Virus record (IMG/VR): IMGVR_UViG_3300029456_000117
DNA: 64,000 nt
Direction: 5' to 3' (one strand)
Origin: a virus
Taxonomy: Duplodnaviria; Heunggongvirae; Uroviricota; Caudoviricetes
Both the position numbers and the translations under genes were made by a program. The notes below the pieces were generated by a model. The model had not been told where the DNA came from and did not search any database. It saw only the letters and a program-made list of their open reading frames with translations. Shown here in pieces: positions 267 to 53,209 of the stretch; position 1 is the stretch's first letter; each line of letters starts with the position of its first letter.

Positions 267-479
267 TCATTCTTCACGCTCCCGTCTGTATGCTCTCAAA
301 TCATACTCAATTAAATCCATCTTCTGATCCACGTCGTTTTTCATATCATCGAGTTCCTTATGCAGCTCATCCGATATTCTGCACTGCTCAATGATTTCTT
401 CCTGTTTTCGGATGATTTCAAGCATTTGTGTGGTTGCCTCACACAGCCTATCTACAATGACATAACTTCCATCACGCAT
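267..479 (-). CDS. small hypothetical protein downstream of DGR RT
   Basis: 70-aa ORF with a charged, coiled-coil-like sequence. Its start overlaps the RT stop. Confidence 0.3.
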   Translation of the reverse strand: MRDGSYVIVDRLCEATTQMLEIIRKQEEIIEQCRISDELHKELDDMKNDVDQKMDLIEYDLRAYRREREE

Positions 480-1500
480 GACTTTCCTTTAACTCCTTTG
501 CTTCGCAGGTGATCTTCTCCACCAGATTATAGGTATCGGCGTGTTTGATTGAACCAATTCTGCTCGTGAGAGACTTGTCGAAAAATTCTTCTGTGATTGT
601 TCCATTCTTAAAGTTTTTCATAAGACGCTTCAATCTTCGCATAGCATCTTTTCTGATTTTCTTCGTGGAGTTCCAATGCCTATATCCTACAAAATCAACG
701 CCGTTCTTCGCATATACGATTGTTGTCTTTGGATTTAACTGCAATTTCAGAACTTCCGCAAGGAATGTCTCTATCTGTTTCTTCCACCGTTTTAACTGTT
801 CGAGATCATCTGATATAATCAGAAAATCGTCCATATATCTCATGTAATACTTCGCATGAAGAGTATGTTTTACGAACATATCTAAGCGGTGTAAGTATAC
901 ATTAGCAAATAACTGGCTTGTAAGATTTCCAACCGGTATGCCGACACCGTCCGGGAATATCCCATTATGGTCTATTATCCGGTCAAGGATTACGAGTAAG
1001 TCCTTGTCTTTAATGTAGGTTCTAATTTCTCTTTTCAGAACCTTGTGGTCTATGCTCTGGAAGTAATGGTGTATGTCGGCTTTCAACACATAAACTGATT
1101 TGCCTTGCACGACTTCCAGATTATATAACCACCTTGTCAACTGCTTGCTGGCTCTGTGAGCACCTTTCCCCTTTCTGCAAGCGTAGGAATGGTATATGAA
1201 CTGATGCTCAAATATCGGCTCTATATAATTGACAATCATGTGTTGGATAACCCTATCGTAGAACGGCAATGCCATAATTATCCGTTCCTTTGGTTCCCAC
1301 ACTTTGAAAACTTTGTACTTCCCAGGAGTGTATGTCAAACTCTTTAATTCCCGGCGGGCTTTGCTGAGATATTCTTCTCTGTTTGCTTCAAACTCCAAAA
1401 CCTCCGGTCTGTACCTTTTGCACCGCCTCGCCTTTCTGTATGCAAGTAAGGCATTGCTCATGGTACAGATGTTTTTCATAAGACCTGTTATTCTCTTCAT
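472..1500 (-). CDS. diversity-generating retroelement (DGR) reverse transcriptase
   Basis: 342 aa with an RT fold. It has the DGR-specific motif-4 signature IPVGNLTSQ (I/LGxxxSQ, replacing the QGxxxSP of group II introns) and the YMDD catalytic box (YMRYMDDFLI). It lies immediately downstream of a TR/VR pair. Confidence 0.9.
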   Translation of the reverse strand: MKRITGLMKNICTMSNALLAYRKARRCKRYRPEVLEFEANREEYLSKARRELKSLTYTPGKYKVFKVWEPKERIIMALPFYDRVIQHMIVNYIEPIFEHQFIYHSYACRKGKGAHRASKQLTRWLYNLEVVQGKSVYVLKADIHHYFQSIDHKVLKREIRTYIKDKDLLVILDRIIDHNGIFPDGVGIPVGNLTSQLFANVYLHRLDMFVKHTLHAKYYMRYMDDFLIISDDLEQLKRWKKQIETFLAEVLKLQLNPKTTIVYAKNGVDFVGYRHWNSTKKIRKDAMRRLKRLMKNFKNGTITEEFFDKSLTSRIGSIKHADTYNLVEKITCEAKELKESHA

Positions 1501-15054: not shown

Positions 15055-15172
15055 CTTCGTTCTACCTCCTTGTGTTTTCCTTTGCCTAAGAGGTAAAGCC
15101 TTGAATTTATTAAAACCACCGGCAGACACCAGGCGAGTGCTTTTCGGGAGCGACCCTAGCCGATGGAGTTAA

Positions 15173-24562: not shown

Positions 24563-24772
24563 CTACCGTCCTAACCTTTCCTGAATGATTTTCTGTCCAT
24601 CTTCACTCTCATAAAACCTTTGAATTGTTCCGAAACAAAACCTCACTCCATCAGGGATCGGCATATAAGTAAGCAGCTCTCCGGTTTCTAATCGCATTTC
24701 GCAGGATTTAATTCCGAAAATCTTTGATTTACACGTCAACTGAAACTTGTGTTTACAGGTCTGTTCTGCCAT
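24563..24772 (-). CDS. hypothetical protein
   Basis: 69-aa ORF. Confidence 0.35.
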   Translation of the reverse strand: MAEQTCKHKFQLTCKSKIFGIKSCEMRLETGELLTYMPIPDGVRFCFGTIQRFYESEDGQKIIQERLGR

Positions 24773-25448
24773 CGTCCTCTCCGATCTCCGAGAACTTCGT
24801 GTATATCCTGTTCTCAGCGTAGTAGATGTTATAATCTTTCTGCCGGATGTAATGCCACAATCCTTTTTCGTGACCGGCTTTCAGAAAATCATGGTTGTAA
24901 TACTCCGTCTCGTACCGCTCATTAACCATCTGCCGGAAACTGAGTTCATCTATCTGGTCTGAGGAATGAACAAAGTCTGAGATCTTGGTAATATCCTCTT
25001 TCGATAATTTCTCTGTTGCCACGAACACAACTCTTACGATTTCCGTTCCGTGTCTCTCCACATATTCCAAATCCTCAACGGATTGCAGATGATACACCAC
25101 TCTTTTGCAGAAATGGTACGGAAACTCCGACTCTGTGTAGCTCGTGTGCATTTCCATTGGAATACCGGCTTTAATGCAGATACCCATAACCATGCCGAGA
25201 TACATAGGCACAAGAGGATTGTCACTATACCGGTAAAGCGGATCTCCACCGCCGGAGATAGATACGATATTCGCTCCGGTCAATGTAATGGCATCCTCCA
25301 ATTTATCCAGACCGTCCACCGTGGATTTCGGCACTTTAATTCCATTCTCCCGGACTATGCAGTAAGGGCATCTGCCGTGGCAACCAAAGTTTGTTATTAC
25401 ACTCAGGTATTTATCCATTGATTGAATCCTCCCATAATTTATCCACAA
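24753..25448 (-). CDS. radical SAM enzyme (NrdG/QueE-like activating enzyme)
   Basis: 231 aa with a CxxxCxxC cluster (GCHGRCPYCIV) and a glycine-rich SAM motif (ISGGGDP). Confidence 0.55.
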   Translation of the reverse strand: MWINYGRIQSMDKYLSVITNFGCHGRCPYCIVRENGIKVPKSTVDGLDKLEDAITLTGANIVSISGGGDPLYRYSDNPLVPMYLGMVMGICIKAGIPMEMHTSYTESEFPYHFCKRVVYHLQSVEDLEYVERHGTEIVRVVFVATEKLSKEDITKISDFVHSSDQIDELSFRQMVNERYETEYYNHDFLKAGHEKGLWHYIRQKDYNIYYAENRIYTKFSEIGEDDGRTDL

Positions 25449-25900: not shown

Positions 25901-27352
25901 CTATTCAACTGTGATGCAATCATATCTCTCAGAATTGATTGTGTTCTCCATTGCCTCAACCGGGTTGTAACCAAGGTTCTGCAGAATCTGTTTGAATACC
26001 GTCACGGACTGTCCGCTTGCAAGCTGCACGCCCTTGCGGTTGTGATCTGCATGGAATACATCGTGTCTGCTATTCACATTCCAGAAGATAATGTTCGGGA
26101 TTACATAACCAGCCTTGCGGAACTTATTTGCCATCTTGTCATAGAAAGACCACTCACGGTTTCCACAACAGTCAATTTCCATGTCTGATATGACAACGAT
26201 TGCTTTCGGCATTTCCTCCTGCGGAGTATTGTGTTTTTCCGCAATTTCAAGAACCCTCTCAAAAGCAGCTTTAAGGTCTGTGTTATTATCCCAATTTGCT
26301 CTGCTTACGTTGTGGATCTTCTGTTCAATGGTTTCTCCCCTCAGAATAACCGTCTCTGGTCTGTCAGAGAATGTCATAAACAGATTGTGGTATGCACCCA
26401 CATTTCTCTCTGCAAAATAGATTGCAAGACCGATTGATGTTGCCATAGGTCTGCCTCTCATGGAACCGGACACATCCGCCATAACTAAAGCGTTTGTTCC
26501 TTTCTCCACATAATCCGGCAAGGCTTTCCACTGGGCTTCAAGTACCTTGTTGCTCTCTCTGCCGTAAAGGATCTTCTCAACAATATCGTAAGGGAATAGT
26601 GTTGAGGCATTGATCTTTACCTCTCCCTTTTCTGCTTTGCTGATAAACTCTCCAAATCTCTCAGCATCATGTTTCATAAATGCCTTGCGGTAAATCATCA
26701 TCGCACGGCTCGGAACTTCCGGGTATTTGATTTCATCCCATCTTCCGGCTGACATAAGACTTTCAACGACACCGATCTGTTTTCTCATGCTACGGACGAT
26801 TCTCTTGAAATTGTAGACTGGATAGCCTAATTTCTGCGCCGTAAGGATTCCGAGTTTTCTTGTGGCAGAGCTGCTTGCATCTGCGGTCTTAATCCACTTT
26901 GCAAGTAAGGAAATTGCATTTCCGGCATTGAGGTTCTGTAAATCTTCCTCAAACTGTTTCTTCATTGCAGCCCACATATCGTCCTCCAACGGAGTGCCGA
27001 TAAGCTCATACAGATCATCATATCTTCCGAACACACCGACCAGATCAAGGTTCGGTCTGAGTGCTTCCGGGTGTTTCTCTGCCATATAACGAATAATGGT
27101 TCTGAAAGTCTTTCTCTCTCCAAGACCGCCGCGAATGTCTCTTGCATAGAACGCAATCTTTGTAGCAAAGAGTTTGTCCTGTGCGTATGCCTCCGCAAAC
27201 AGAGTGGTAATTCTGTTCTCATCAGCCTCTCTCAGCGATCCGATTGTACCAAACAGATCCAATCTGGCATCGCCAGAAGTATTCAGTGCCACCGCACCAT
27301 TTTCAGTCCGGGTAAATCTACCCTCTTCTCTCATTGCATCTGCAAAGCTCAT
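25901..27352 (-). CDS. rsr: Ro60/Rsr-like RNA-binding protein (TROVE domain plus C-terminal vWA/MIDAS)
   Basis: 483 aa. The C-terminal vWA domain carries MIDAS motif DVSGSM (VMADVSGSMRGRPMATSIGLAIYFAERN). The N-terminal roughly 350 aa are helical-repeat TROVE-like. Size and architecture match bacterial Rsr. Confidence 0.7.
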   Translation of the reverse strand: MSFADAMREEGRFTRTENGAVALNTSGDARLDLFGTIGSLREADENRITTLFAEAYAQDKLFATKIAFYARDIRGGLGERKTFRTIIRYMAEKHPEALRPNLDLVGVFGRYDDLYELIGTPLEDDMWAAMKKQFEEDLQNLNAGNAISLLAKWIKTADASSSATRKLGILTAQKLGYPVYNFKRIVRSMRKQIGVVESLMSAGRWDEIKYPEVPSRAMMIYRKAFMKHDAERFGEFISKAEKGEVKINASTLFPYDIVEKILYGRESNKVLEAQWKALPDYVEKGTNALVMADVSGSMRGRPMATSIGLAIYFAERNVGAYHNLFMTFSDRPETVILRGETIEQKIHNVSRANWDNNTDLKAAFERVLEIAEKHNTPQEEMPKAIVVISDMEIDCCGNREWSFYDKMANKFRKAGYVIPNIIFWNVNSRHDVFHADHNRKGVQLASGQSVTVFKQILQNLGYNPVEAMENTINSERYDCITVE

Positions 27353-27369
27353 GTTTTCCTACCTTTCCA

Positions 27370-27465
27370 GGACTCTCATTTACGGAATTGAACCGTTTCA
27401 CATTGTTTTTTAGACATTTGCTTTAACCATTGTGATTGCTGTAGGAGTCCCTATAAAATTGTTTA
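27370..27465 (-). ncRNA. tRNA-like/Y-RNA-like element next to rsr (acceptor-like terminal stem, internal T-loop GGTTCAATTCC, conserved GTGAC..ACAGCAATC motif)
   Basis: 5' GGGACTC pairs with 3' GAGTCCT. An internal T-loop-like CGG/TTCAATT/CCG is present. Motif copy 1. No anticodon arm. Confidence 0.3.
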
Positions 27466-27475
27466 CTGTTTCATT

Positions 27476-27560
27476 GTCAGGACACTATTGGGGTTTATGA
27501 TTAACAGTCATATCCAAAAGGGTTGCTGTAAGTGTCCCATGTAAAGTTTTATGCCTATCT
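27476..27560 (-). ncRNA. armless tRNA-like element (acceptor stem plus Asn-like anticodon arm TATGA/CTGTTAA/TCATA, no T arm)
   Basis: 5' GGGACAC pairs with 3' GTGTCCT. Motif copy 2 occupies the D-arm position. Confidence 0.3.
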
Positions 27561-27803
27561 GGCTAACTTTTTAAGTTCATACCGCCTGTTATGTATCGCT
27601 CCGACAGAACGACCAATTTTCTCAGACAATTCAGAATCGGTAATCTCATGCTTGATTACCAGTGTATCTTCCTCCGCAGTCCACGGATGAGACGGATATA
27701 GAAATGAAGTTTTGCTGTAATATCGCCTATGCTGTCTCTGACACGCCTTATGATACTTTTCCATATCCCTATAATCTTCTTTTCGGTTCATAGGCAACCT
27801 CAT
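27555..27803 (-). CDS. small Myb/HTH-like DNA-binding protein
   Basis: 82 aa. WTAEEDTLV...LSEKIGRSVGAIHNRRYEL resembles a Myb/SANT or sigma-region-4-like HTH. Confidence 0.4.
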   Translation of the reverse strand: MRLPMNRKEDYRDMEKYHKACQRQHRRYYSKTSFLYPSHPWTAEEDTLVIKHEITDSELSEKIGRSVGAIHNRRYELKKLAR

Positions 27804-27886
27804 TTCTTTACATGACGCTGTTTCAAACGGGAAAATATTGTCAATGGAATTTTCTGTTTTGAAAGATTGCTGTAAGCGTCACTTAA

Positions 27887-27987
27887 TTGCCCCGACAGGA
27901 CTTGAACCCGTATGCTCGATTGCTGTGCGGAACACAAGCGTTATCGCAGTCATGTTCCCTCCGGTTTACCATAACCGGCAATCGGGG
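27887..27987 (-). ncRNA. YrlA-like tRNA mimic 1 (101 nt; acceptor, D and T arms intact; anticodon stem-loop replaced by a long bulged helix)
   Basis: Acceptor stem is GCCCCGA/TCGGGGC. D arm is CCGG/TTATGGTAAA/CCGG. T arm is CGGG/TTCAAGT/CCTG. The middle section is GGAAC-ATGACT-GCG-ATAA-CGC-TTGT-GTTCC plus motif copy 4. Confidence 0.45.
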
Positions 27988-27989
27988 CA

Positions 27990-28108
27990 GAGACGAGGGA
28001 CGGAATCGAACCGCCGACACATGCCTTGGATTGGAATGAGATTGCTGCTGAGATCACTAACATGATCTGCGTATTCATATCATTGCTCTACCATCTGAGC
28101 TACCTCGC
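27990..28108 (-). ncRNA. YrlA-like tRNA mimic 2 (119 nt)
   Basis: Acceptor stem is GGCGAGG/CCTCGTC. D arm is GCTC/AGATGGT/AGAGC. T arm is GGCGG/TTCGATT/CCGTC. About 65 nt of extra structured sequence, containing motif copy 5, replaces the anticodon/variable region. Confidence 0.45.
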
Positions 28109-28158
28109 CATGTGGCACGTCTTATTGATTTGTAAGGACGTTTGTGCCATCGCCTTGA

Positions 28159-28278
28159 TTGGAGAGAGTTGGATTTGAACCAACAATGAAGCAGGCCCCA
28201 AGCTGTAAGATTTGCTGTCAGCATCACAAACATGATGTATTGTACATAACTGCCGCGTCTACCGTTCCGCCATCTCTC
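28159..28278 (-). ncRNA. YrlA-like tRNA mimic 3 (120 nt)
   Basis: Perfect acceptor stem GGAGAGA/TCTCTCC. T arm is GTTGG/TTCAAAT/CCAAC. The body has multiple small hairpins and motif copy 6, with no 7-nt anticodon loop. Confidence 0.45.
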
Positions 28279-28310
28279 CATATTCAGTTTTAATACGGAA
28301 ATCCGTATCA

Positions 28311-28431
28311 GTTGCGTGGGAGGGAATCGAACCCCCATCTCTTCGTTACCATCGAAAAAAGAATTATTGCTGTCCGTGTCACATGGAGCATGACAACCGC
28401 TCATAATGTTCTCTCCATTGAACTACCACGC
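28311..28431 (-). ncRNA. YrlA-like tRNA mimic 4 (121 nt; retains a possible GGU anticodon arm after a 47-nt insertion)
   Basis: Acceptor stem is TGCGTGG/CCACGCA. D arm is GTTC/AATGGAGA/GAAC. T arm is GGGGG/TTCGATT/CCCTC. There is a 47-nt insert containing motif copy 7, then TTTCG/ATGGTAA/CGAAG. Confidence 0.45.
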
Positions 28432-28434
28432 AAG

Positions 28435-28506
28435 ATTGCGGAGACAGGATTTGAACCTGTGACCTCCGGGGCATGAACCCGACAAGCTACCACTGCTCCA
28501 CTCCGC
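28435..28506 (-). tRNA. tRNA-Met (CAU), initiator-like
   Basis: GGCGGAG-TG-GAGC/AGTGGTA/GCTT-G-TCGGG/TTCATGC/CCCGG-AGGTC-ACAGG/TTCAAAT/CCTGT-CTCCGCA-A. It has a 1:72 mismatch and GGG:CCC in the anticodon stem, as in initiator tRNAs. Confidence 0.6.
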
Positions 28507-28721
28507 CATGATGTAACCTCGCCCCTAGGCTACCTTGTAAGTTCCGCTATGTCGTTCCTTGCGTCCCTCACTTAACCGGTGCTAACTACGACAGTATGTG
28601 ACCGGCGGACTTGATTAAATATTTCCGTACACCCGCTTAATGCCCCTCATTGGCGGTTCTGCCGAGACCAATGGCAATGCCGATAGAAAATATCTTTCGG
28701 GAAATCTCTCTAACCCAACTG

Positions 28722-28752
28722 GTTTAGCGTCCGAAGTCAGGACGGCTTTTTA
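28722..28752 (+). terminator. plus-strand rho-independent terminator-like hairpin with U-tract
   Basis: The sequence is gcgtcc-gaagtca-ggacgg-ctttttat. The U-tract is only on the plus strand. The only plus-strand ORF ending here is a weak 64-aa ORF. Confidence 0.4.
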
Positions 28753-29115
28753 TAATACTCTGGATATTGTCTTTCCAGAATTGTTCAGAATAAATACAAC
28801 CTTGTCCTCACAACCAATTCTGCTAAATACATAGCTTTCATCATCAGTTGTTACGACTACGAGATTATCGTTTTCTTCTAACGCAGGATCTCCGAGGTAC
28901 CAAGTAATGTTGTCTCTGCAAAAGCCGGCCTTTTTAATCTCATTCTCAACGCGGTTATAATTCTCTTTTCTCGCGTAAAGTTCTTCGTCAGCATCTTTGC
29001 AATTCTTTGTGTCAATCAACTTTGACTTCAAATCTCCTACTGAAAAACTTTCGATAATTCTTGATTCCATAAGGATTAAATTGTCTGAACCTTTCTTGCC
29101 TATCTGTAATATCAT
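28750..29115 (-). CDS. hypothetical protein embedded in the tRNA array
   Basis: 121-aa ORF with balanced composition. Confidence 0.45.
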   Translation of the reverse strand: MILQIGKKGSDNLILMESRIIESFSVGDLKSKLIDTKNCKDADEELYARKENYNRVENEIKKAGFCRDNITWYLGDPALEENDNLVVVTTDDESYVFSRIGCEDKVVFILNNSGKTISRVL

Positions 29116-29241
29116 TTCGTTTCTTCCTTTCTGTCTGAGCCTTTCGGCTTTATTTTCTCCGTTCCGGACCGGATATTGGATAGGTAAGGGATCGAACCTT
29201 ACACTGGAATATTACGATAGTCGCAGATTACCTCATGTGTT

Positions 29242-29345
29242 TGGTGCGTACGGATTTTTGAACCTATCGTATCAAAGGTGGATGGCTGCCATTCCTGCTT
29301 ATTCCAATCACTGCACTTTGCGCTGTTGCCACATCGGGACGCACC
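29242..29345 (-). ncRNA. tRNA-like element (104 nt) with perfect acceptor stem GGTGCGT/ACGCACC and a T-loop-like GGTTCAAAA
   Basis: A 7-bp terminal stem encloses structured sequence. There is no canonical anticodon arm. Confidence 0.35.
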
Positions 29346-29436
29346 TTTTCCTCAACCGTACTAATATTGCAGTTACCCTTTACTGCCTACTATCCAATTC
29401 TGAAACCTCCTCCACCGGTGGAATACGGTTTCATAG

Positions 29437-29519
29437 CGGTGCATATAGGAATCGAACCTATACGGCATTTCTGCCGGATGGCTTAGCAAGCCACTCCGCT
29501 ACCATTACGGCAATGCACC
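29437..29519 (-). tRNA. tRNA-Ser (anticodon GCU), class II
   Basis: Acceptor stem is GGTGCAT/ATGCACC. Anticodon arm is GTGGC/TTGCTAA/GCCAT. Long variable arm is CGGCA-GAAA-TGCCG. T arm is ATAGG/TTCGATT/CCTAT. Confidence 0.6.
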
Positions 29520-29523
29520 ATAA

Positions 29524-29595
29524 CGACTCTATTGGGAATCGAACCCAAATTTTCCGATAGACAGTCGGGCGTAATAACCTTTATACCATAGAGCC
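29524..29595 (-). tRNA. tRNA-Asp (anticodon GUC)
   Basis: GGCTCTA-T-GGTA...TACG-CCGA/CTGTCTA/TCGG-AAAAT-TTGGG/TTCGATT/CCCAA-TAGAGTC-G. Confidence 0.65.
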
Positions 29596-29719
29596 AAAAC
29601 CACAAAGTAAAATGCGACCTCACACCGCGGAATCGAACCGTTCCTTTCTCTATTGGTTTTTGGATAGAGAATGTGCAACCCATACACCTACGAATCGAAC
29701 GTATCCTTTACTTTGCCAC

Positions 29720-29802
29720 GCCGTGTTAGGGATTTGAACCCCAGAGACTTTTACATCCAGACGGTTTTCAAGACCGCACCCTCGACCAACCGGACACACG
29801 GC
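29720..29802 (-). tRNA. tRNA-Ser (anticodon UGA), class II
   Basis: Acceptor stem is GCCGTGT/ACACGGC. Anticodon arm is GCGGT/CTTGAAA/ACCGT. A long variable arm is present. T arm is TGGGG/TTCAAAT/CCCTA. Confidence 0.7.
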
Positions 29803-29916
29803 AGAGTAGTTTTCCCTTGGTAACGTACAAGTCGGAGATCCTCTTCCGCCGGTCGTAAACGCCCTTTCGTAACCTTTTTATGGAGTGCTTTGAAAGAGTA
29901 AGTCAAGTGTCTCCAA

Positions 29917-29988
29917 CTGGCAAGGTGGGGATCGAACCCACGACATTCTGATTAACAGTCAGACGCTCTACCACTGAGCTACAAGCCA
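29917..29988 (-). tRNA. tRNA-Asn (anticodon GUU) with two U-U mismatches in the acceptor stem
   Basis: TGGCTTG-TA-GCTC/AGTGGTA/GAGC-G-TCTGA/CTGTTAA/TCAGA-ATGTC-GTGGG/TTCGATC/CCCAC-CTTGCCA-G. Confidence 0.55.
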
Positions 29989-29991
29989 TTA

Positions 29992-30066
29992 TTGGAGTAA
30001 CAGGACTCGAACCTGCGCTAACCAACATCCGTAGTGTTGTGCTCTATCCATCTGAGCTATACTCCA
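29992..30066 (-). tRNA. tRNA-Arg (anticodon ACG)
   Basis: TGGAGTA-TA-GCTC/AGATGGAT/AGAGC-A-CAACA/CTACGGA/TGTTG-GTTAG-CGCAG/GTTCGAGT/CCTGT-TACTCCA-A. Confidence 0.7.
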
Positions 30067-30069
30067 ATG

Positions 30070-30833
30070 CAGTCCGGCGGCAGCTTGGATGGTTGCCACT
30101 ACCGAACCGATGCAACGTGTAAGACAGTTGCCAACAAAGGTATTTCATTTTTTAATGTGGTTCTCGGACCTTGCACCCCTCCACATGGTTCTCATAATCC
30201 ACCGACTACATACTCAAAGAACCTTTGACGAGTCCAACTCTTTATCGCCTTACCTCGGATGTACGTTGTTATCGCAGTTCTCCGCCTCTACTACATTCCT
30301 CTGCGCCTGACTAAGCATGACGGCTCGATTGGTTACGGCTCACGCACATCTATAATCAGGTCTTTCTCGGAAGTTTCCACCGCCGCTTAAATCGCTGTAA
30401 CGCTCATGCACTCTAAGCAGTAAATTTTCCGCACCGGAGTTTTTCTTAAAAACTCTTGGTAATGAAAAAGCACTTGGTGATCACCGGAACCTCGCCACCG
30501 CCAATTTTCTTTCCTGTTAAAGCCGGACTAAGAAAATCAGTTAAGAAATCCGCTCGTCCTACGGTGGGGAGTTGAACCCCACTTTCCCCGGCATGGTGTC
30601 CGTGGCATTTCCAGTTATGCTATCGTAGGCACCGTTGCAACAGTGGTCTTTAGCGTGACTTACGCAAGCTCTCCAATTTTAAGTCCTGTCGGCTTTCCCA
30701 GACTACTCACATAAGCCTCTCAGTGAGCATTGCAATCTCCCTATTTAATGATTGCTTACCACGGCTTTCGCCAATACTTTTCAGCCGGAACACTAAACCA
30801 ACTATAAACAGTCAGCGTTATTCTCAGTTGAAA
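30070..30833 (-). other. about 760-nt ORF-free region inside the tRNA array, with a tRNA-like fragment at about 30566-30631 and repeated ccaccgcc elements
   Basis: There is no minus-strand ORF of 60 aa or more. The fragment has a T arm TGGGG/TTCAACT/CCCCA and acceptor-like pairing. The strand and extent of any RNA are unknown. Confidence 0.2.
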
Positions 30834-30905
30834 TGTTCGATGGGAGAATCGAACTCCCGTCCCCACCGTGAAAAGGTGGTGTCTTGACCGTTTGACTAAT
30901 CGAAC
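30834..30905 (-). tRNA. tRNA-Glu (anticodon UUC)
   Basis: GTTCGAT-TA-GTC/AAACGGTCAA/GAC-A-CCACC/TTTTCAC/GGTGG-GGAC-GGGAG/TTCGATT/CTCCC-ATCGAAC-A. Confidence 0.65.
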
Positions 30906-31013
30906 AGAGGAGCGTTCCTTTTTACCGAAAGGCAATTAACCGCACAAGCGTAAACGGGTTCCTGATATTGATTTTTTCTTGCAAGATTACTTTCTCGGCT
31001 CATTACACCGAAA

Positions 31014-31103
31014 TGGGCGAAAGAGGAATTGAACCTCCAATGTTTACCACGAGGGAACGGATTTACAGTCCGCCGCAACACCACCAATCGTTGCCGTTCG
31101 CCC
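31014..31103 (-). tRNA. tRNA-Tyr (anticodon GUA), class II
   Basis: Acceptor stem is GGGCGAA/TTCGCCC. Anticodon arm is GCGGA/CTGTAAA/TCCGT. The variable region is 18 nt. T arm is GGAGG/TTCAATT/CCTCT. Confidence 0.6.
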
Positions 31104-31221
31104 GGAATTTTCTTTGTATCGCCAAGAACATTAGGAAAGAAGCGGTGGGAATCTTGATCGCTAGAGCTGCACCCACAGGTGGAATCGAACCACCACACTA
31201 CACCAAGTTCGCTCCGATCAT

Positions 31222-31497
31222 TTAGCGATTCACTTCATCTTTCAGTGCTTTACCGGCTTTGAACTTAGGTGCTTTGCAAGCCGGAATGGAAATCTCTTTT
31301 CCGTTCTGAGGGTTCTTGCCAACTCTGGCAGCGCGCTCAGTCACTTCAAATGTTCCGAAACCTACCAACTGCACTTTTCCACCCTTTCCAAGTTCTCCGC
31401 CTACGATCTCAACAAATGCGTTGAGTGCTTTTTCAGCGTCACTTTTGGAAAGTCCGGCATCGTCAGCCATAGCCTGTACTAATTCAGCTTTATTCAT
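31222..31497 (-). CDS. hup: HU family DNA-binding protein
   Basis: MNKAELVQAMADDAGLSKSDAEKALNAFVEIV...VQLVGFGTFEVTERAARVGKNPQNGKEISIPA is a canonical HU/IHF signature. Start is taken at the internal Met of ORF 31222-31533. Confidence 0.8.
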   Translation of the reverse strand: MNKAELVQAMADDAGLSKSDAEKALNAFVEIVGGELGKGGKVQLVGFGTFEVTERAARVGKNPQNGKEISIPACKAPKFKAGKALKDEVNR

Positions 31498-32467
31498 TGC
31501 CCTGTACCTCCGTTGTTGATGAAAGATCTCCAATGTCTACGATTGTGTCCGTGCCGTCAGATAGTGATACTTTCGGCAGTGCGCCGTCCCACTTCTCCAA
31601 ATACATCTGCTGCAAAATCTTATTCGTCAGTGAATCATTCAACAGTTTATTGGCGTCCGCTTCCCCCTGCGCTTTAATAACGGCAGCATCAGCTTCGCCC
31701 TGCGCCTGAGTAGTTTTTACCTTGGCATCTGCCTCAGCGGCCTCGATTTTTTTCTTATTTTCGATCTGCTGCTGTTCATAAGCCAACTGTGCGGTCTGTT
31801 TTTCAGCGATTGCCTGATTGTAACTGTCCTCAAAATCAGTATTGGCAATTACTACCTTGTTGATGATTACTACGTCCTCTCCATATTTCTCATTGAGGGC
31901 TTTCTGAATGTTCTGCATGGAAAGAGGTTCTACGATTCCTCTATTCGTTGCATCTGTTGAGGCCAAGGACTTGCTGCTTGTCTTGATTGCGGAAGCCACA
32001 AGTGTCTGCGTTACAAGGTTCTCCTTATAGTTGCTGACGTTTGCATAAATCCATGCGGACATTTCCGGGTTGATCTGGTATGTAACTGTAATGCCGTCAT
32101 AATACAGTGACGTTCTTTCCGATGTTTCAGACCAAATCTGTCCGTCAAAAACAATGTCCTGCTGCTTGTTGTTGACTTTCTCAATCTTCTGGATGAATGG
32201 GATCTTCCAGTTTGCGCCGTTCTGTATTGTTGTCTCATCAATCTGTCCGAATGTGCTTTTAACTCCGGTATATCCGGTCGGTATAATCACGAGTGAATTA
32301 CCTACTCCGAATACAATCAGACCAACAAGTGCCACAACAACAAAACCTTTTGGGAATTTTGCTTTCTCATTTCCCTTTTCCTCGATTTCATACTGTTTTA
32401 ACAAACACCCTGCAATGATGCCGCCGAAGAAAAGTATGATTCCGATGATCGTCAAAATGATACTCAT
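31490..32467 (-). CDS. SPFH/band-7 (HflK/C, stomatin-like) membrane protein
   Basis: 325 aa with an N-terminal TM helix, an SPFH core and a C-terminal AEA/Q-rich coiled coil (QAQGEADAAVIKAQGEADA). Confidence 0.65.
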   Translation of the reverse strand: MSIILTIIGIILFFGGIIAGCLLKQYEIEEKGNEKAKFPKGFVVVALVGLIVFGVGNSLVIIPTGYTGVKSTFGQIDETTIQNGANWKIPFIQKIEKVNNKQQDIVFDGQIWSETSERTSLYYDGITVTYQINPEMSAWIYANVSNYKENLVTQTLVASAIKTSSKSLASTDATNRGIVEPLSMQNIQKALNEKYGEDVVIINKVVIANTDFEDSYNQAIAEKQTAQLAYEQQQIENKKKIEAAEADAKVKTTQAQGEADAAVIKAQGEADANKLLNDSLTNKILQQMYLEKWDGALPKVSLSDGTDTIVDIGDLSSTTEVQGNE

Positions 32468-32629
32468 TCCGTTCTCCTTTTCCGTTTGTATTGCTACCTC
32501 TGGTAGCCGTCACGGTCATGCGCTGGACATTCCGTTTCTGTTCTGCATCGGCGCACTCAACCACCTTACTTCGTCTGGTCTATCTTGGTGTAGCTTCCAT
32601 TTACCCGGGAAATGCCAGATCGCCATGCG

Positions 32630-32704
32630 TGGACCATCAGGGACTTGAACCCCAGACCATCCGGTTATGAGCCGGACGCTCTAACCAACTGAGCTAATGG
32701 TCCA
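32630..32704 (-). tRNA. tRNA-Met or tRNA-Ile2 (anticodon CAU), elongator type
   Basis: GGACCAT-TA-GCTC/AGTTGGTTA/GAGC-G-TCCGG/CTCATAA/CCGGA-TGGTC-TGGGG/TTCAAGT/CCCTG-ATGGTCC-A. Confidence 0.65.
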
Positions 32705-32803
32705 TACCTCACACTCAGGGAGATTTGATGTGAGGTTTCGGAGGATTATCATAAGTGGGAACCCTCCGATGTAGGATTGCTGTCGGGGAACAGTAATCCC
32801 GAG

Positions 32804-32876
32804 TGGGAAGTGTTGGTGTCGAACCAACTCCTATGGATTTTCAGTCCATCGCTTCTACCGAGTTAGCTTACTTCCC
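32804..32876 (-). tRNA. tRNA-Phe (anticodon GAA)
   Basis: GGGAAGT-A-AGCT...GAAGC-G-ATGGA/CTGAAAA/TCCAT-AGGAG-TTGG/TTCGACA/CCAAC-ACTTCCC-A. Confidence 0.7.
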
Positions 32877-33029
32877 ATATTACGGCACTGTTACTGTGCC
32901 GTAATGGTTAGGAGAAACTTTAATGCCAAATACCTTGTGTTCACTCCGCTTAACTTATGTCCGTGTCACTTGGTATGGTCGTAGTATAGCCTACTGAACA
33001 TTGTTTGTCAAGTGGAATAAACAATATTT

Positions 33030-52003: not shown

Positions 52004-53209
52004 ATGAGCAATTTGAAAGTATACGCAAAAACCATTGAAGATGAAGCACTTGAACAGATCAACACTCTTCTGTCTCAGGATGCCTTTAAGGACTGCAAGG
52101 TTCGCATTATGCCGGATGTTCATGCCGGTAAAGGCTGTGTAATCGGATTTACGGCAGACCTGGGAGAAAAGGTTATCCCGAACATTGTCGGAGTAGATAT
52201 TGGCTGTGGTATGCTCTGCGTGAGCATCGGACACGGAGATATTGATTTTGAAAAATTGGATAATGTCATTCGTACCTATGTCCCTAGTGGAAGAAATGTG
52301 CATGACGGTAGAGTTATGCGTTTTGGCGAATTACAAGACCTCTACTGTTACCGCGAATTGAGAGACACCAAGCGTATTGAGCGTTCTATCGGAACTCTCG
52401 GCGGCGGGAACCATTTCATTGAGGTTGATGTTGCTGAGGATGGATATAAGTATCTGGTTATTCATACCGGTAGCCGTAACCTCGGAAAACAGGTGGCGGA
52501 TTATTACCAGAATCTTGCCTACGAATTGATGTGTGGCAAGGACGATTTGTATGAGCGTCAGGATAAGCTCATTGAGGAATACAAGGCTGCCGGAAGAAAG
52601 TCTGAGATTGAGGCTGCCTTAAAAGAATTGCGTGAGAATTTCCGTGCCACCACTCCGAAGCTGCCAAAGGATCTGTGCTACTTGGATGGAAAGTACCGGG
52701 AGCAGTATTTACATGATATGCGTATCTGCCAGAAGTTTGCATATTTCAACCGTGTGATGATCGCGCAAATCATCTGCAATCACATGGGATGGGGAGTTGA
52801 TGCTGATATGCCGGATTACTTTGAGTGCATCCACAACTATATAGACCACGATTCTAATATTGTCCGCAAGGGTGCTATCTCTGCAAAACTCGGAGAAAAG
52901 GTACTTATCCCTATCAATATGCGTGACGGCTGTATTCTCGGAACCGGAAAGGGCAATGATGATTGGAACTGTTCTGCGCCGCATGGAGCTGGCCGGCTTA
53001 TGTCCCGGAGCAAAGCAAAGGAAACTCTCTCTTTGAGCGATTATTCTGCTTCTATGTCCGGCATCTACACCACTTCCGTATCTGAGGAAACCATAGATGA
53101 AGCTCCGATGGCATACAAACCGATTGAGGAAATCATGGACTGTATCAAAGATACCGTTGATATTCTCGCAGTATTGAAGCCGGTCTATAATTTCAAGGCG
53201 AGCGAATAA
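52004..53209 (+). CDS. rtcB: RtcB-family RNA 3'-phosphate/2',3'-cyclic-phosphate ligase
   Basis: 401 aa. It has the RtcB signatures MPDVHAGKGCVIGF, GGGNHFIEV, HTGSRNLG and the C-terminal HNY...GAGR metal/GTP-binding residues. Confidence 0.85.
   Translation: MSNLKVYAKTIEDEALEQINTLLSQDAFKDCKVRIMPDVHAGKGCVIGFTADLGEKVIPNIVGVDIGCGMLCVSIGHGDIDFEKLDNVIRTYVPSGRNVHDGRVMRFGELQDLYCYRELRDTKRIERSIGTLGGGNHFIEVDVAEDGYKYLVIHTGSRNLGKQVADYYQNLAYELMCGKDDLYERQDKLIEEYKAAGRKSEIEAALKELRENFRATTPKLPKDLCYLDGKYREQYLHDMRICQKFAYFNRVMIAQIICNHMGWGVDADMPDYFECIHNYIDHDSNIVRKGAISAKLGEKVLIPINMRDGCILGTGKGNDDWNCSAPHGAGRLMSRSKAKETLSLSDYSASMSGIYTTSVSEETIDEAPMAYKPIEEIMDCIKDTVDILAVLKPVYNFKASE

What the first reader, a model, noticed from the sequence alone, without database searches (positions are those of the whole stretch)
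25901..28431. Phage-encoded Ro60/Rsr next to a tandem array of Y-RNA-like (YrlA-like) tRNA mimics
The 483-aa TROVE+vWA protein (MIDAS DVSGSM) is Ro60/Rsr-like. Within 1 kb upstream lie at least six tRNA-like RNAs of 85-121 nt on the same strand. Four are tandem (27887-27987, 27990-28108, 28159-28278, 28311-28431). These have perfect 7-bp acceptor stems and canonical D and T arms. In place of the anticodon/variable region they carry 25-65 nt of extra structured sequence with no 7-nt anticodon loop. That is the architecture described for bacterial YrlA Y RNAs, which are tRNA mimics that tether Rsr. Bacterial rsr usually has one or two Y RNAs. An array of four to six inside a phage tRNA island is unusual. 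It suggests a phage system that sequesters or redirects host RNA decay or tRNA-processing enzymes, or decoys anticodon nucleases.
Basis: partly seen in the sequence, partly recalled or inferred. Interest (0 to 1): 0.85.

Follow-up and report, generated by a model that had tools for sequence, protein, structure and literature searches.

The report
Phage Ro-like protein with cognate RNAs
A gut phage encodes a ring-shaped Ro60-like RNA-binding protein preceded by seven small RNAs, four of them built on tRNA bodies, that share one conserved "handle", and the same protein-plus-RNA pairing recurs in many unrelated phages without, as far as I could find, having been described.

Summary

Upstream on the same strand lie four tandem tRNA-like RNAs (E1-E4, 101-121 nt) and three stem-loop RNAs (F5-F7, 66-89 nt). 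All seven share one module: a covarying helix followed by single-stranded (U)ACAGCAAU.

They are not YrlA members. Rfam YrlA fails, there is no GNCGAA motif, and the ends lie in the acceptor stem. They are unlikely to be intron-bearing tRNAs, because E4 and F5-F7 have no anticodon arm.

A covariance model built only from Listeria, Mycobacterium, Bacillus and Salmonella phages and distant metagenomic loci finds exactly F5, F6 and F7 as the top three hits in the 64-kb window. It gives 48 same-strand hits next to DUF2828 genes in 80 bacterial and archaeal genome loci. It gives none (E<0.1) in about 440 kb of viral DNA lacking the gene.

In other phages the same handle encloses permuted tRNA-like domains, which is the YrlA topology.

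Best reading: a Y-RNA-like RNP family with a new protein-binding motif. Binding and function are inferred, not shown.

The parts
25901..27352 (-). Ro60-fold protein gene (483 aa). It belongs to Pfam DUF2828 + DUF7788 (vWA with MIDAS DVSGSM) and phrog_850.
27365..27453 (-). F7, a stem-loop 'handle' RNA. Closing helix GGGACUC/GAGUCCU, then CU-ACAGCAAUC, an inner hairpin and a T-arm-like hairpin ACGG-UUCAAUU-CCGU. Its 3' strand abuts the ribosome-binding region of the Ro-like gene.
   Evidence: R1 hit of 26.3 bits, E 0.004. MFE leaves the motif unpaired. Orthologues keep the helix through compensatory changes.
27475..27540 (-). F6, a stem-loop 'handle' RNA. Closing helix GGGACACU/AGUGUCCU, then U-ACAGCAAC and an inner hairpin.
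   Evidence: R1 hit of 27.3 bits, E 0.002. Positional homologues show GGGACGCU/AGCGUCC, GGAUGCU/AGCAUCC and UGAUGCU/AGCAUCA.
27555..27803 (-). Small ORF (82 aa) lying between F5 and F6. Whether it is a real gene or plays any role is uncertain.
   Evidence: Only a weak phrog_323 hit. No similarity to the small ORF upstream of the Listeria phage homologue.
27808..27884 (-). F5, a stem-loop 'handle' RNA. Closing helix GUGACGCU/AGCGUCAU, then U-ACAGCAAUC and a long inner hairpin.
   Evidence: R1 hit of 27.8 bits, E 0.002. MFE z=-3.2.
27888..27988 (-). E4, a tRNA-like RNA with a 7-bp acceptor stem, a D arm and a T arm. The handle hairpin (GGAACA...UGUUCC) sits where the anticodon arm should be, and GC-ACAGCAAUC sits in the variable-loop position. 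It has no anticodon arm.
   Evidence: Sequence. MFE z=-3.25 and a cloverleaf-like fold. Orthologues in 60+ loci.
27991..28109 (-). E3, a tRNA-like RNA. The handle (AGAUCA-UGUUAG-UGAUCU, CAGC-AGCAAUC) branches from the anticodon stem between positions 29 and 30. The residual arm is AUGCC-AAUCCAA-GGCAU.
   Evidence: Rfam tRNA 41.9 bits. RNAalifold with covariation.
28160..28279 (-). E2, a tRNA-like RNA with a Leu-like D arm. The handle (CAUCA-UGUUUG-UGAUG, CUG-ACAGCAAAUC) is inserted between positions 30 and 31. The residual arm is GCAGG-CUUGGGG-CCUGC (UGG triplet).
   Evidence: Rfam tRNA 40.1 bits. Orthologues show G.U and compensatory changes in the hairpin.
28312..28432 (-). E1, a tRNA-like RNA. 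The handle (GUCA-UGCUCCAUG-UGAC, ACGG-ACAGCAAUA) lies between the D arm and a hairpin UUUCG-AUGGUAA-CGAAG (GGU triplet).
   Evidence: Rfam tRNA 43.7 bits. Orthologues carry GGU, GAU or GGA in the same body.
28434..28508 (-). Ordinary tRNA-Met. It lies directly upstream of E1, so the array continues the phage tRNA island on the same strand.
52004..53209 (+). RtcB RNA ligase gene, a possible functional partner. It is not adjacent to the locus.
   Evidence: Pfam RtcB E 1e-62. RtcB also lies 1.2 kb downstream of the Listeria phage homologue.

Best explanation
This is a phage ribonucleoprotein system of the Ro60/Y-RNA type, built from a divergent protein family and a previously uncatalogued RNA family.

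The protein. It folds into a Ro60-like helical ring plus a vWA/MIDAS domain.

The RNAs. Seven RNAs are encoded head-to-tail on the same strand at the end of the phage tRNA island. Each carries the same 'handle':
- a helix (consensus RGAYNNN / NNNRUCN followed by UG);
- a single-stranded (U)ACAGCAAU;
- a second helix.
I infer that this handle is the binding site of the Ro-like protein. It would play the role that the GNCGAA bulged helix plays for Ro60/Rsr.

Two layouts of the handle.
- In F5-F7 the handle closes a simple stem-loop.
- In E1-E4 the handle is capped by a loop and grafted into, or in place of, the anticodon arm of an otherwise complete tRNA. RNase P, RNase Z and the CCA-adding enzyme would therefore be expected to release and stabilise E1-E4 like tRNAs.

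Inferred mechanism. The tRNA body would act as an adaptor that brings the ring protein to tRNA-recognising host or phage factors. These could be tRNA nucleases, repair enzymes such as the phage RtcB, or exoribonucleases. The last element, F7, touches the ribosome-binding region of the protein's own mRNA, so feedback control is plausible.

What is shown and what is inferred.
- Shown: the fold, the RNA family and its covariation, and the tight same-strand linkage across phyla.
- Inferred: binding, processing and biological role (probably counter-defence or RNA quality control).
For: Protein.
- The MIDAS residues are invariant.
- Homologues are annotated 'Ro-like RNA binding protein' in Mycobacterium phages.

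RNA structure.
- The closing helix in 24 elements from unrelated phages is 90% paired, against 29-40% in slid controls. There are 61 double-change cells against 3-11.
- RNAalifold independently recovers the capped handle hairpin in E-type RNAs, with 6-8 compensatory changes per pair.
- Recurrent U.G pairs argue for RNA on this strand.
- The motif is unpaired in the MFE folds.

Linkage to the gene.
- Model R1, built without any sequence of this phage lineage, finds F5, F6 and F7 as the top three hits of the window.
- R1 gives 66 hits, all on the gene strand, in 204 kb of DUF2828 loci.
- R1 gives 48 hits, all on the gene strand and mostly within 500 nt upstream of the gene, in 36 of 80 genome loci.
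- R1 gives no hit at E<0.1 in about 440 kb of viral loci without the gene.
- Three or four copies flank the gene in Listeria, Mycobacterium, Bacillus and Felix O1-type phages.

tRNA link.
- In Gabriela, FO1a, PBC2 and L213 the handle encloses T-arm then D-arm domains, which is the YrlA topology.
- In PBC2 and L207 it encloses tRNA-like bodies.
- In L205 and L212 the capped form reads ...AUAUCUUG-UU-AAGAUAU-UA-ACAGCAA. This is the two ends of the stem-loop form joined together.

Precedent and expression from the literature.
- Thermus phage Ro60 binds two Y-like RNAs encoded upstream of its gene (PMC12135203).
- Highly transcribed unannotated regions lie upstream of the Listeria CKA15 homologue (PMC12282133).
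- Bas63 gp130, a Ro60-like protein sitting upstream of that phage's tRNAs, counters the ppl defence system (PMC11482910).
Against: - No binding, expression or processing data exist for this phage.
- The protein has no detectable sequence similarity to TROVE, so Ro-like RNA recognition is an extrapolation from fold.
- The handle could instead be recognised by another conserved factor or by an RNase.
- R1 hits in the window are modest (26-28 bits, E about 0.002-0.004).
- The set used for the covariation count was picked with a finder that required pairing, which inflates the percentage paired.
- Only 36 of 80 genome loci gave an R1 hit at E<=0.05.
- E1-E3 keep anticodon-like hairpins. A pure protein-tethering model does not need these.
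Confidence: 0.7

Rival explanations
1. E1-E3 are genuine decoding tRNAs (Thr-GGU, Pro-UGG, Gly-UCC-like) interrupted by short introns. An endonuclease excises the inserts and the phage RtcB joins the halves. The conserved module would be the splicing signal, and the Ro-like protein a splicing or chaperone factor.
For: - Removing the insert leaves a perfect 5-bp stem with a 7-nt loop carrying U33 and a purine at 37 in E1, E2 and the Val-type relatives.
- The window encodes RtcB and a MazF/PemK-like endoribonuclease.
- The triplets do not duplicate those of the ordinary tRNAs of the island.
Against: - E4 has no anticodon arm at all, and F5-F7 have no tRNA body, yet all carry the same module.
- The module occurs in non-tRNA stem-loops next to DUF2828 genes in many phages.
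- The insert position differs between elements: 26/27, 28/29, 29/30, 30/31 or inside the loop.
- By inspection there is no bulge-helix-bulge. The flanking helix P2 lies wholly inside the insert.
- There is no group I intron hit.
- Near-identical E1 bodies carry GGU, GAU or GGA, which is incompatible with a fixed aminoacyl identity.
- A natural 12-nt deletion variant (L035) lost the anticodon-like loop but kept the module.
- E3 has A33.
Confidence: 0.12
2. The handle is an RNA-processing or cis-regulatory signal of the tRNA/Ro operon rather than the core of stable trans-acting RNAs. It could be an RNase entry site that dices the polycistronic transcript, or a 5'-UTR operator controlling translation of the Ro-like gene.
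For: - The elements lie in one co-oriented array with tRNAs, with no terminator-like sites on the minus strand.
- The last element abuts the ribosome-binding region of the Ro-like gene in this lineage and in distant loci.
- In PBC2 and L207 the closing helix brackets tRNA-like bodies.
Against: - Three to eight copies per locus, some downstream of the gene (Gabriela, FO1a, L207), are not what a single operator needs.
- The E-type RNAs have complete acceptor stems that would make them independent, stable RNAs.
- Autoregulation by F7 is compatible with the main model rather than opposed to it.
Confidence: 0.12
3. The repeats act at the DNA level, as promoters, recombination or homing sites, or remnants of a miniature mobile element that inserts into tRNA genes. 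The link to the protein gene would then be incidental.
For: - The array composition varies between close relatives, with elements gained, lost and degenerated.
- The same about 45-nt module appears in different tRNA bodies.
Against: - Helix positions covary while the sequence changes, with recurrent G.U pairs that would be A.C mismatches on the other strand.
- All 114 model hits in DUF2828 loci lie on the gene strand.
- The number of sigma-70-like promoter matches is not above shuffled expectation.
- The motif is conserved across hosts with different promoter types.
Confidence: 0.04

Closest known systems
Ro60/Rsr with YrlA-type Y RNAs (Rfam RF02553; Chen et al. 2014, PMC4201824)
   Same: - The protein is a ring plus a vWA/MIDAS domain.
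- The RNAs are encoded within about 1 kb on the same strand.
- The RNAs are modular: a conserved protein-binding helix or loop plus a tRNA-like domain.
- In related phages the handle encloses T-arm then D-arm domains exactly as in YrlA.
- An RtcB gene lies in the same genome, as in the Salmonella rsr-yrlBA-rtcBA operon.
   Different: - The protein is Pfam DUF2828, not TROVE.
- The conserved motif is (U)ACAGCAAU, not GNCGAAN0-1G.
- The Rfam YrlA model does not match (31 bits against a gathering score of 69, and that hit is an artefact of two adjacent tRNAs).
- In E1-E4 the ends lie in a true 7-bp acceptor stem and the handle is capped by a loop, so the layout is circularly permuted.
- There are seven RNAs per locus rather than one or two.
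Thermus phage phiLo Ro60 with Yrl1/Yrl2 (PMC12135203; PDB 9KOP, 9L5Y)
   Same: - Two Y-like RNAs lie directly upstream of the gene.
- Each is described as a 5'-3' stem flanking an internal bulge that carries the conserved motif.
   Different: - The phiLo protein is a recognisable TROVE protein.
- Its RNAs carry the CGAA motif and have no tRNA scaffold.
- Binding and PNPase recruitment were shown experimentally there, and nothing has been shown here.
Intron-containing tRNAs (archaeal bulge-helix-bulge introns at non-canonical positions; bacterial group I introns in the anticodon loop)
   Same: - Inserts of 45-60 nt lie in or next to the anticodon stem of otherwise canonical tRNA genes.
- An RtcB ligase is present in the genome.
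   Different: - There is no bulge-helix-bulge (by inspection).
- There is no group I core (no Rfam hit).
- The same module occurs without any tRNA (F5-F7) and in a tRNA body with no anticodon arm (E4).
ROOL/GOLLD large phage RNAs found next to tRNA genes
   Same: - They are phage-borne non-coding RNAs embedded in tRNA islands.
- In the Listeria phage a ROOL RNA (89.8 bits) lies between the tRNAs and the Ro-like gene, next to three handle RNAs.
   Different: - ROOL and GOLLD are 500-800 nt RNAs that assemble without protein.
- There is no ROOL or GOLLD match in this window.

Membership tests
Ro60 / TROVE protein family | Sequence match to the TROVE domain (Pfam PF05731) or to solved Ro60 chains | tested here: not met
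   Pfam gives DUF2828, DUF7788 and VWA_2 only. phmmer and a 62-sequence profile against PDB hit only vWA domains.
Ro60 / TROVE protein family | Alpha-helical ring followed by a vWA domain (the Ro60 fold) | tested here: met
   [not shown]
Ro60 / TROVE protein family | MIDAS motif (DxSxS...T...D) in the vWA domain | tested here: met
   D293, S295, S297, T358 and D390 are invariant in alignment A1.
Ro60 / TROVE protein family | Binds Y RNA on the outer ring surface and single-stranded 3' ends in the central hole | not testable with these tools
   Requires biochemistry or a complex structure.
YrlA Y RNA (Rfam RF02553) | Score at or above the Rfam gathering threshold (69 bits) | tested here: not met
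   The best hit is 31.1 bits at 29934-30035, spanning tRNA-Arg and tRNA-Asn. Within E1-E4 the scores are 19-22 bits.
YrlA Y RNA (Rfam RF02553) | GNCGAAN0-1G motif near the 5' end (PMC4201824) | tested here: not met
   The motif is absent. The conserved motif is (U)ACAGCAAU.
YrlA Y RNA (Rfam RF02553) | tRNA-like domain with D and T arms | tested here: met
   E1-E3 score 40-44 bits on Rfam tRNA. The acceptor, D and T stems are recovered with covariation. E4 was judged by inspection and MFE.
YrlA Y RNA (Rfam RF02553) | 5' and 3' ends in the protein-binding stem, with the acceptor-like stem closed by a loop | tested here: not met
   In E1-E4 the ends lie in the acceptor stem and the handle is capped. 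The YrlA layout is seen only in relatives: Gabriela L082 5027-5148, FO1a L084 5924-6048, PBC2 L083 1483-1600 and L213 2673-2775.
YrlA Y RNA (Rfam RF02553) | Encoded within about 4 kb of the Ro gene on the same strand | tested here: met
   All seven RNAs lie within 1.1 kb upstream on the minus strand.
Decoding tRNA (Rfam RF00005 plus a continuous anticodon arm) | Cloverleaf with an uninterrupted 5-bp anticodon stem and 7-nt loop | tested here: not met
   ARAGORN calls none of E1-E4. The Rfam alignments need 57-62-nt insertions. E4 has no anticodon arm.
Intron-containing tRNA | Recognisable splicing signal (bulge-helix-bulge, or a group I core), and the insert absent from non-tRNA contexts | tested here: not met
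   No group I hit. No bulge-helix-bulge by inspection. The same module is present in F5-F7 and in stem-loop RNAs of unrelated phages.
DUF2828-associated 'ACAGCAA handle' RNA (family defined here, model R1) | Covarying closing helix, 1-3 nt, (U)ACAGCAAU, a variable domain, the 3' strand followed by UG, on the strand of a neighbouring DUF2828 gene | tested here: met
   F5, F6 and F7 are the three best R1 hits in the window (26-28 bits). E1-E4 carry the permuted form, judged by sequence comparison with L205 and L212 and by the RNAalifold hairpin. The permutation itself was not scored with a model.

The most novel reading that the evidence does not exclude
The tRNA-scaffolded members (E1-E4) may be bifunctional adaptors. 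The cell's tRNA machinery would process them, possibly add CCA and even charge them, while each carries a Ro-like protein on a side arm. Their rapidly changing anticodon-like loops (GGU, GAU, GGA, UGG, UAC, GCU) would then form a panel of baits. These baits would present the Ro-like ring, and through it RtcB or an exonuclease, to host anticodon nucleases or other tRNA-directed defences. That would make a programmable counter-defence RNP. More broadly, DUF2828 proteins plus handle RNAs would be a major, unrecognised anti-defence module of tRNA-rich phages, including Felix O1, the A511/P100 group and cluster L mycobacteriophages.
Probability: 0.2. Interest if true: 0.9.

Novelty: new variant of a known kind. 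Interest (0 to 1): 0.78.

Why it matters
- Ro60/Y-RNA particles are conserved from bacteria to humans, but their RNA partners are hard to find by homology.
- DUF2828 proteins occur in at least 709 deposited phage genomes. These include model and therapeutic phages such as Felix O1-like phages, Listeria Pecentumvirus, Staphylococcus and Enterococcus phages, and cluster L mycobacteriophages.
- Two recent papers guessed that unidentified 'Y RNAs' accompany this protein (PMC12282133, PMC11482910).
- One of them showed that the Felix O1-like homologue counters a defence system.
- This window leads to a concrete, searchable definition of those RNAs: a helix plus ACAGCAAU.
- It also shows that the handle can be grafted onto tRNAs in at least three topologies.
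- That turns a vague annotation into direct experiments: which RNAs bind, what the tRNA part recruits, and whether the RNAs are needed for counter-defence.

Tried and rejected
- Rfam, at gathering thresholds and at E<=10 over 27300-33000, gave no family other than tRNA for the elements. The YrlA hits are sub-threshold and arise from two adjacent tRNAs mimicking the permuted layout.
- Small self-cleaving ribozymes and group I introns were considered for the inserts. There are no Rfam hits and no recognisable cores.
- A kissing interaction between the hairpin loop UGUUUG and ACAGCAA was considered. At most 3-4 pairs can form, so it was dropped.
- A sigma-70 promoter or terminator explanation was tested. 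Matches do not exceed shuffled expectation for promoters, and there are no minus-strand terminators in the array.
- A literature search for DUF2828 returned only unrelated plant and tardigrade papers. A search for the motif string returned only siRNA sequences.
- An exact-pattern scan of viral contigs (CATGTTNGTG...ACAGCAA) returned many chance hits in coding DNA. It was useful only after filtering.
- The search for related loci with P0122 found nothing.
- The 82-aa ORF between F5 and F6 is not similar to the small ORF upstream of the Listeria homologue.
- A candidate eighth element at 30312-30406 from my loose finder was not supported by model R1.
- The 488-nt spacer 30068-30555 shows no excess folding energy.
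- I did not build a separate model for the capped (E-type) handle. I also did not score in-silico permuted sequences.

Full report
**1. What is at the coordinates**

All features lie on the minus strand, at the downstream end of a phage tRNA island that holds 13 ARAGORN tRNAs.

The ORF at 25901-27352 encodes 483 aa. Pfam assigns DUF2828 (E 3e-42), DUF7788 (E 4e-39) and VWA_2, with no TROVE match. PHROGs assigns phrog_850, 'RNA-binding protein' (E 2e-133).

Upstream of the ORF, the Rfam tRNA model matches three unusually long elements:
- 28312-28432 at 43.7 bits;
- 28160-28279 at 40.1 bits;
- 27991-28109 at 41.9 bits.

Each match needs a 57-62-nt insertion in the anticodon region. ARAGORN does not call them. 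A fourth element, 27888-27988, has a 7-bp acceptor stem, a D arm and a T arm but no anticodon arm.

**2. The protein has the Ro60 fold but is a different sequence family**

phmmer, and a profile of 62 homologues, searched against all PDB sequences find only vWA domains.

An AlphaFold2 model built on a diverse alignment (38-56% identity) is confident, with pLDDT 93.2 and pTM 0.92.
- Foldseek against the PDB ranks Ro60 structures first: Thermus phage phiLo 9l5y and 9kop, and Xenopus 1yvr. E is about 1e-7, the alignments are full-length and TM reaches 0.62.
- The MIDAS residues D293, S295, S297, T358 and D390 are invariant.

Homologues occur in 709 deposited phage genomes. Hosts include Escherichia, Salmonella, Mycobacterium, Listeria, Staphylococcus, Enterococcus, Bacillus, Campylobacter and Vibrio. 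Mycobacterium phages annotate them 'Ro-like RNA binding protein'.

**3. The seven RNAs share one module**

Reading the strand, and collecting all variants from 80 related viral loci, shows that every insert contains two things. The first is a hairpin of the form NNNCA-UGUUUG-UGNNN. The second, 2-4 nt later, is ACAGCAAU(C).

The hairpin stem covaries: GAUCA/UGAUC, GUCA/UGAC, UAUCA/UGAUA, CAUCA/UGAUG, GGAACA/UGUUCC. It also shows a recurrent U.G pair at one position, which argues for RNA structure on this strand. RNAalifold on 15 representatives independently predicts the acceptor, D and T stems and this hairpin, with 6-8 compensatory changes at three hairpin pairs.

The insert sits at different places in different tRNA bodies:
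- between positions 26 and 27 in E1;
- between 30 and 31 in E2;
- between 29 and 30 in E3 and the Val-type relatives;
- between 28 and 29 in a GCU-type relative.

When the insert is set aside, a 5-bp stem with a 7-nt loop remains:
- AUGGUAA in E1;
- CUUGGGG in E2;
- AUUACAA in Val-type relatives;
- AAUCCAA, with A33, in E3.

In E4 the hairpin replaces the anticodon arm and the motif lies where the variable loop would be.

Three more copies of the motif lie between E4 and the start codon, without a tRNA body. In each, a 7-8-bp closing helix is followed by U-ACAGCAAY and an inner hairpin: F5 (GUGACGCU...AGCGUCAU), F6 (GGGACACU...AGUGUCCU) and F7 (GGGACUC...GAGUCCU). F7 also has a T-arm-like hairpin, and its 3' strand runs into the ribosome-binding region of the gene.

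**4. The module follows the protein family far beyond this phage**

Loci around DUF2828 genes that are only about 50% identical again show long tRNA-like hits directly upstream of the gene (L212, L205, L215/L216). They also show tandem stem-loop elements with the same motif.

The pattern repeats in four cultured, unrelated phages:
- Listeria vB_Liva_VAfA18 has three copies just upstream of the gene.
- Mycobacterium phage Gabriela has three copies just downstream.
- Bacillus phage PBC2 has three copies upstream and more inside the tRNA array.
- Salmonella phage FO1a (Felix O1) has four copies in the tRNA island downstream.

The consensus is: 5' RGRYNNN, 1-3 nt, (U/A)ACAGCAAU, a variable domain, NNNRYCY, UG 3'.

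In an alignment of 24 such elements from these other phages, the closing helix is 90% paired, against 29-40% when the partner strand is slid by 1-3 columns. It has 61 double-change cells against 3-11. One caveat applies. The elements were picked with a finder that required pairing, so the percentage paired is inflated. The diversity of pair types is not.

A covariance model (R1) built from that alignment contains no sequence of the window's lineage. Its results are:

| Search set | Size | Result |
|---|---|---|
| The window | 64 kb | F5, F6 and F7 are the three best hits (27.8, 27.3 and 26.3 bits; E 0.002-0.004) |
| DUF2828 loci | 204 kb | 66 hits, all on the gene strand |
| 80 bacterial and archaeal genome loci holding a homologue | 487 kb | 48 hits at E<=0.05, all on the gene strand, in 36 loci, mostly within 500 nt upstream |
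| Viral loci without the gene | about 440 kb | No hit at E<0.1 |

In the last search, the only significant hits were in L182, which does carry the gene.

Rfam 15 reports nothing at these elements.

**5. Relation to tRNA and to YrlA**

The variable domain enclosed by the handle is often tRNA-derived.
- In Gabriela (L082 5027-5148), FO1a (L084 5924-6048), PBC2 (L083 1483-1600) and L213 (2673-2775) it is a T arm, then a closed stem, then a D arm. This is the permuted layout that defines YrlA (PMC4201824).
- In PBC2 (1802-1924) and L207 (6017-6126) it is a tRNA-like body in normal order without an acceptor stem.

The window's E-type RNAs are the converse. There, the tRNA acceptor stem holds the ends and the handle is capped. 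The capped hairpin of L205 reads AUAUCUUG-UU-AAGAUAU-UA-ACAGCAA. That is the 3' consensus (NNNRUCUUG) joined to the 5' consensus (AAGAYNNN-UA-ACAGCAA) of the stem-loop form. I therefore read the E-type as a circular permutation of the stem-loop form. This rests on sequence comparison, and I did not score permuted sequences with a model.

Membership in the Rfam YrlA family fails on three counts:
- the score is 31 bits against a gathering score of 69, and that hit spans tRNA-Arg and tRNA-Asn;
- the motif differs, since there is no GNCGAAN0-1G;
- the topology of E1-E4 differs.

**6. Why not introns**

For the intron reading:
- clean anticodon arms remain after removal of the insert;
- RtcB is encoded at 52004-53209;
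- a MazF/PemK-like endoribonuclease is encoded in the window.

Against it:
- E4 and F5-F7 cannot yield a tRNA, yet they carry the same module.
- The module is conserved in non-tRNA contexts across phyla.
- The insert positions vary.
- There is no bulge-helix-bulge by inspection, because the flanking helix lies inside the insert.
- There is no group I core.
- Near-identical E1 bodies carry GGU, GAU or GGA.
- A 12-nt deletion variant lost the anticodon-like loop but kept the module.

I give the intron rival about 0.12.

**7. Most likely mechanism**

Shown:
- a Ro60-fold protein;
- a structured RNA family with a conserved single-stranded motif flanked by helices;
- strict same-strand linkage of the two across distant phages.

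Inferred by analogy with Ro60/Y RNA, including phage phiLo Ro60, which binds two Y-like RNAs encoded upstream of its gene and recruits PNPase (PMC12135203):
- The handle is the protein's binding site.
- The tRNA-like part recruits tRNA-recognising factors.
- E1-E4 are released and stabilised by RNase P, RNase Z and CCA addition.
- F7 may allow feedback on the protein's mRNA.

Evidence from the literature on homologues:
- Unannotated, highly transcribed regions lie within 2 kb upstream of the Listeria CKA15 homologue, and that protein was detected in virions (PMC12282133).
- Bas63 gp130 is a Ro60-like protein directly upstream of that Felix O1-like phage's tRNA genes. It counters the ppl defence system, and the authors guessed that some 'tRNAs' are Y RNAs (PMC11482910).
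- LeBron gp53 is moderately toxic when overexpressed (PMC13148394).

That Bas63 gp130 is the DUF2828 homologue is my inference. It rests on the 95-100% conservation of FO1a gp42 across Felixounavirus genomes.

A role in counter-defence or RNA repair and quality control is therefore plausible but unproven.

**8. Novelty**

The kind is known: a Ro60-type RNP with tRNA-mimicking RNAs, including in phages. I found the following neither in Rfam 15 nor in the searchable literature:
- the RNA family itself, meaning its motif, its structure and its link to DUF2828;
- its occurrence in several tRNA-related topologies;
- arrays of up to seven or eight copies.

I cannot exclude a description in papers outside the library. 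I rate the finding a new variant of a known kind, with interest 0.78.

Noticed in passing
window 472-1500(-) and neighbouring ORFs up to about 13.7 kb: A diversity-generating retroelement appears to be present. The evidence is a reverse transcriptase (RVT_1, E 7e-23), a bAvd-like protein and an Mtd-like domain among the tail and structural genes.
   Followed up: no
window 15099-15166(-): An int-alpA RNA (Rfam RF02996) scores 43.8 bits, above its gathering score of 35.8.
   Followed up: no
window 30556-30629(-): ARAGORN calls a tRNA of undetermined identity with a four-base anticodon 'acca', which implies an 8-nt loop. Rfam did not list it at gathering thresholds.
   Followed up: no
window 30068-30555(-): A 488-nt ORF-poor spacer lies inside the tRNA island. 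It has no Rfam match and no excess folding energy (z=-0.25). A loose motif finder flagged 30312-30406, but model R1 did not support it.
   Followed up: partly
window 52004-53209(+), and elsewhere in 43.8-63.9 kb and 1-43 kb: The window encodes an RtcB RNA ligase (E 1e-62), a PemK/MazF-like toxin, an Rv2179c-like 3'-5' exoribonuclease, an integrase and an FtsK-like ATPase. The phage therefore carries several RNA-end-making and RNA-end-joining enzymes.
   Followed up: partly
window 24753-25448(-): A radical SAM protein (phrog_17662, E 4e-59) is encoded immediately downstream of the Ro-like gene, after a 135-aa ORF.
   Followed up: no
L081 (Listeria phage vB_Liva_VAfA18) 1960-2511: A ROOL RNA hit (89.8 bits, E 5e-17, just under the gathering score of 99.1) lies between tRNA-Pro and the Ro-like gene, next to three handle RNAs. 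An RtcB gene lies 1.2 kb downstream.
   Followed up: partly
L207 2278-2754: A group-I-intron-like hit (44.7 bits) and tmRNA-like fragments lie upstream of a distant DUF2828 gene. Handle RNAs and tRNAs lie downstream of the same gene.
   Followed up: no
L011/L009 about 2669-2911, L052/L053 about 2792-2924 (orthologues of E1): Near-identical E1 bodies carry different anticodon-like triplets (GGU, GAU, GGA), with compensating changes in the adjacent stem. L035 2952-3061 is a deletion variant that lost the anticodon-like loop but kept the handle.
   Followed up: partly
L221-L264 (genome contigs): The closest cellular homologues (63-79% identity) lie in Lachnospiraceae genomes, including Roseburia hominis An869. 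The host of this temperate phage is therefore probably a Lachnospiraceae member, despite one 'Bacteroidales' label on a close MAG protein.
   Followed up: no
L293 (contig binned as Promethearchaeota archaeon) 1410-1663: The best R1 hit in the genome set (44.3 bits) lies next to a DUF2828 gene on a 6.6-kb contig assigned to an Asgard archaeon MAG. It could be a viral contig that was mis-binned.
   Followed up: no
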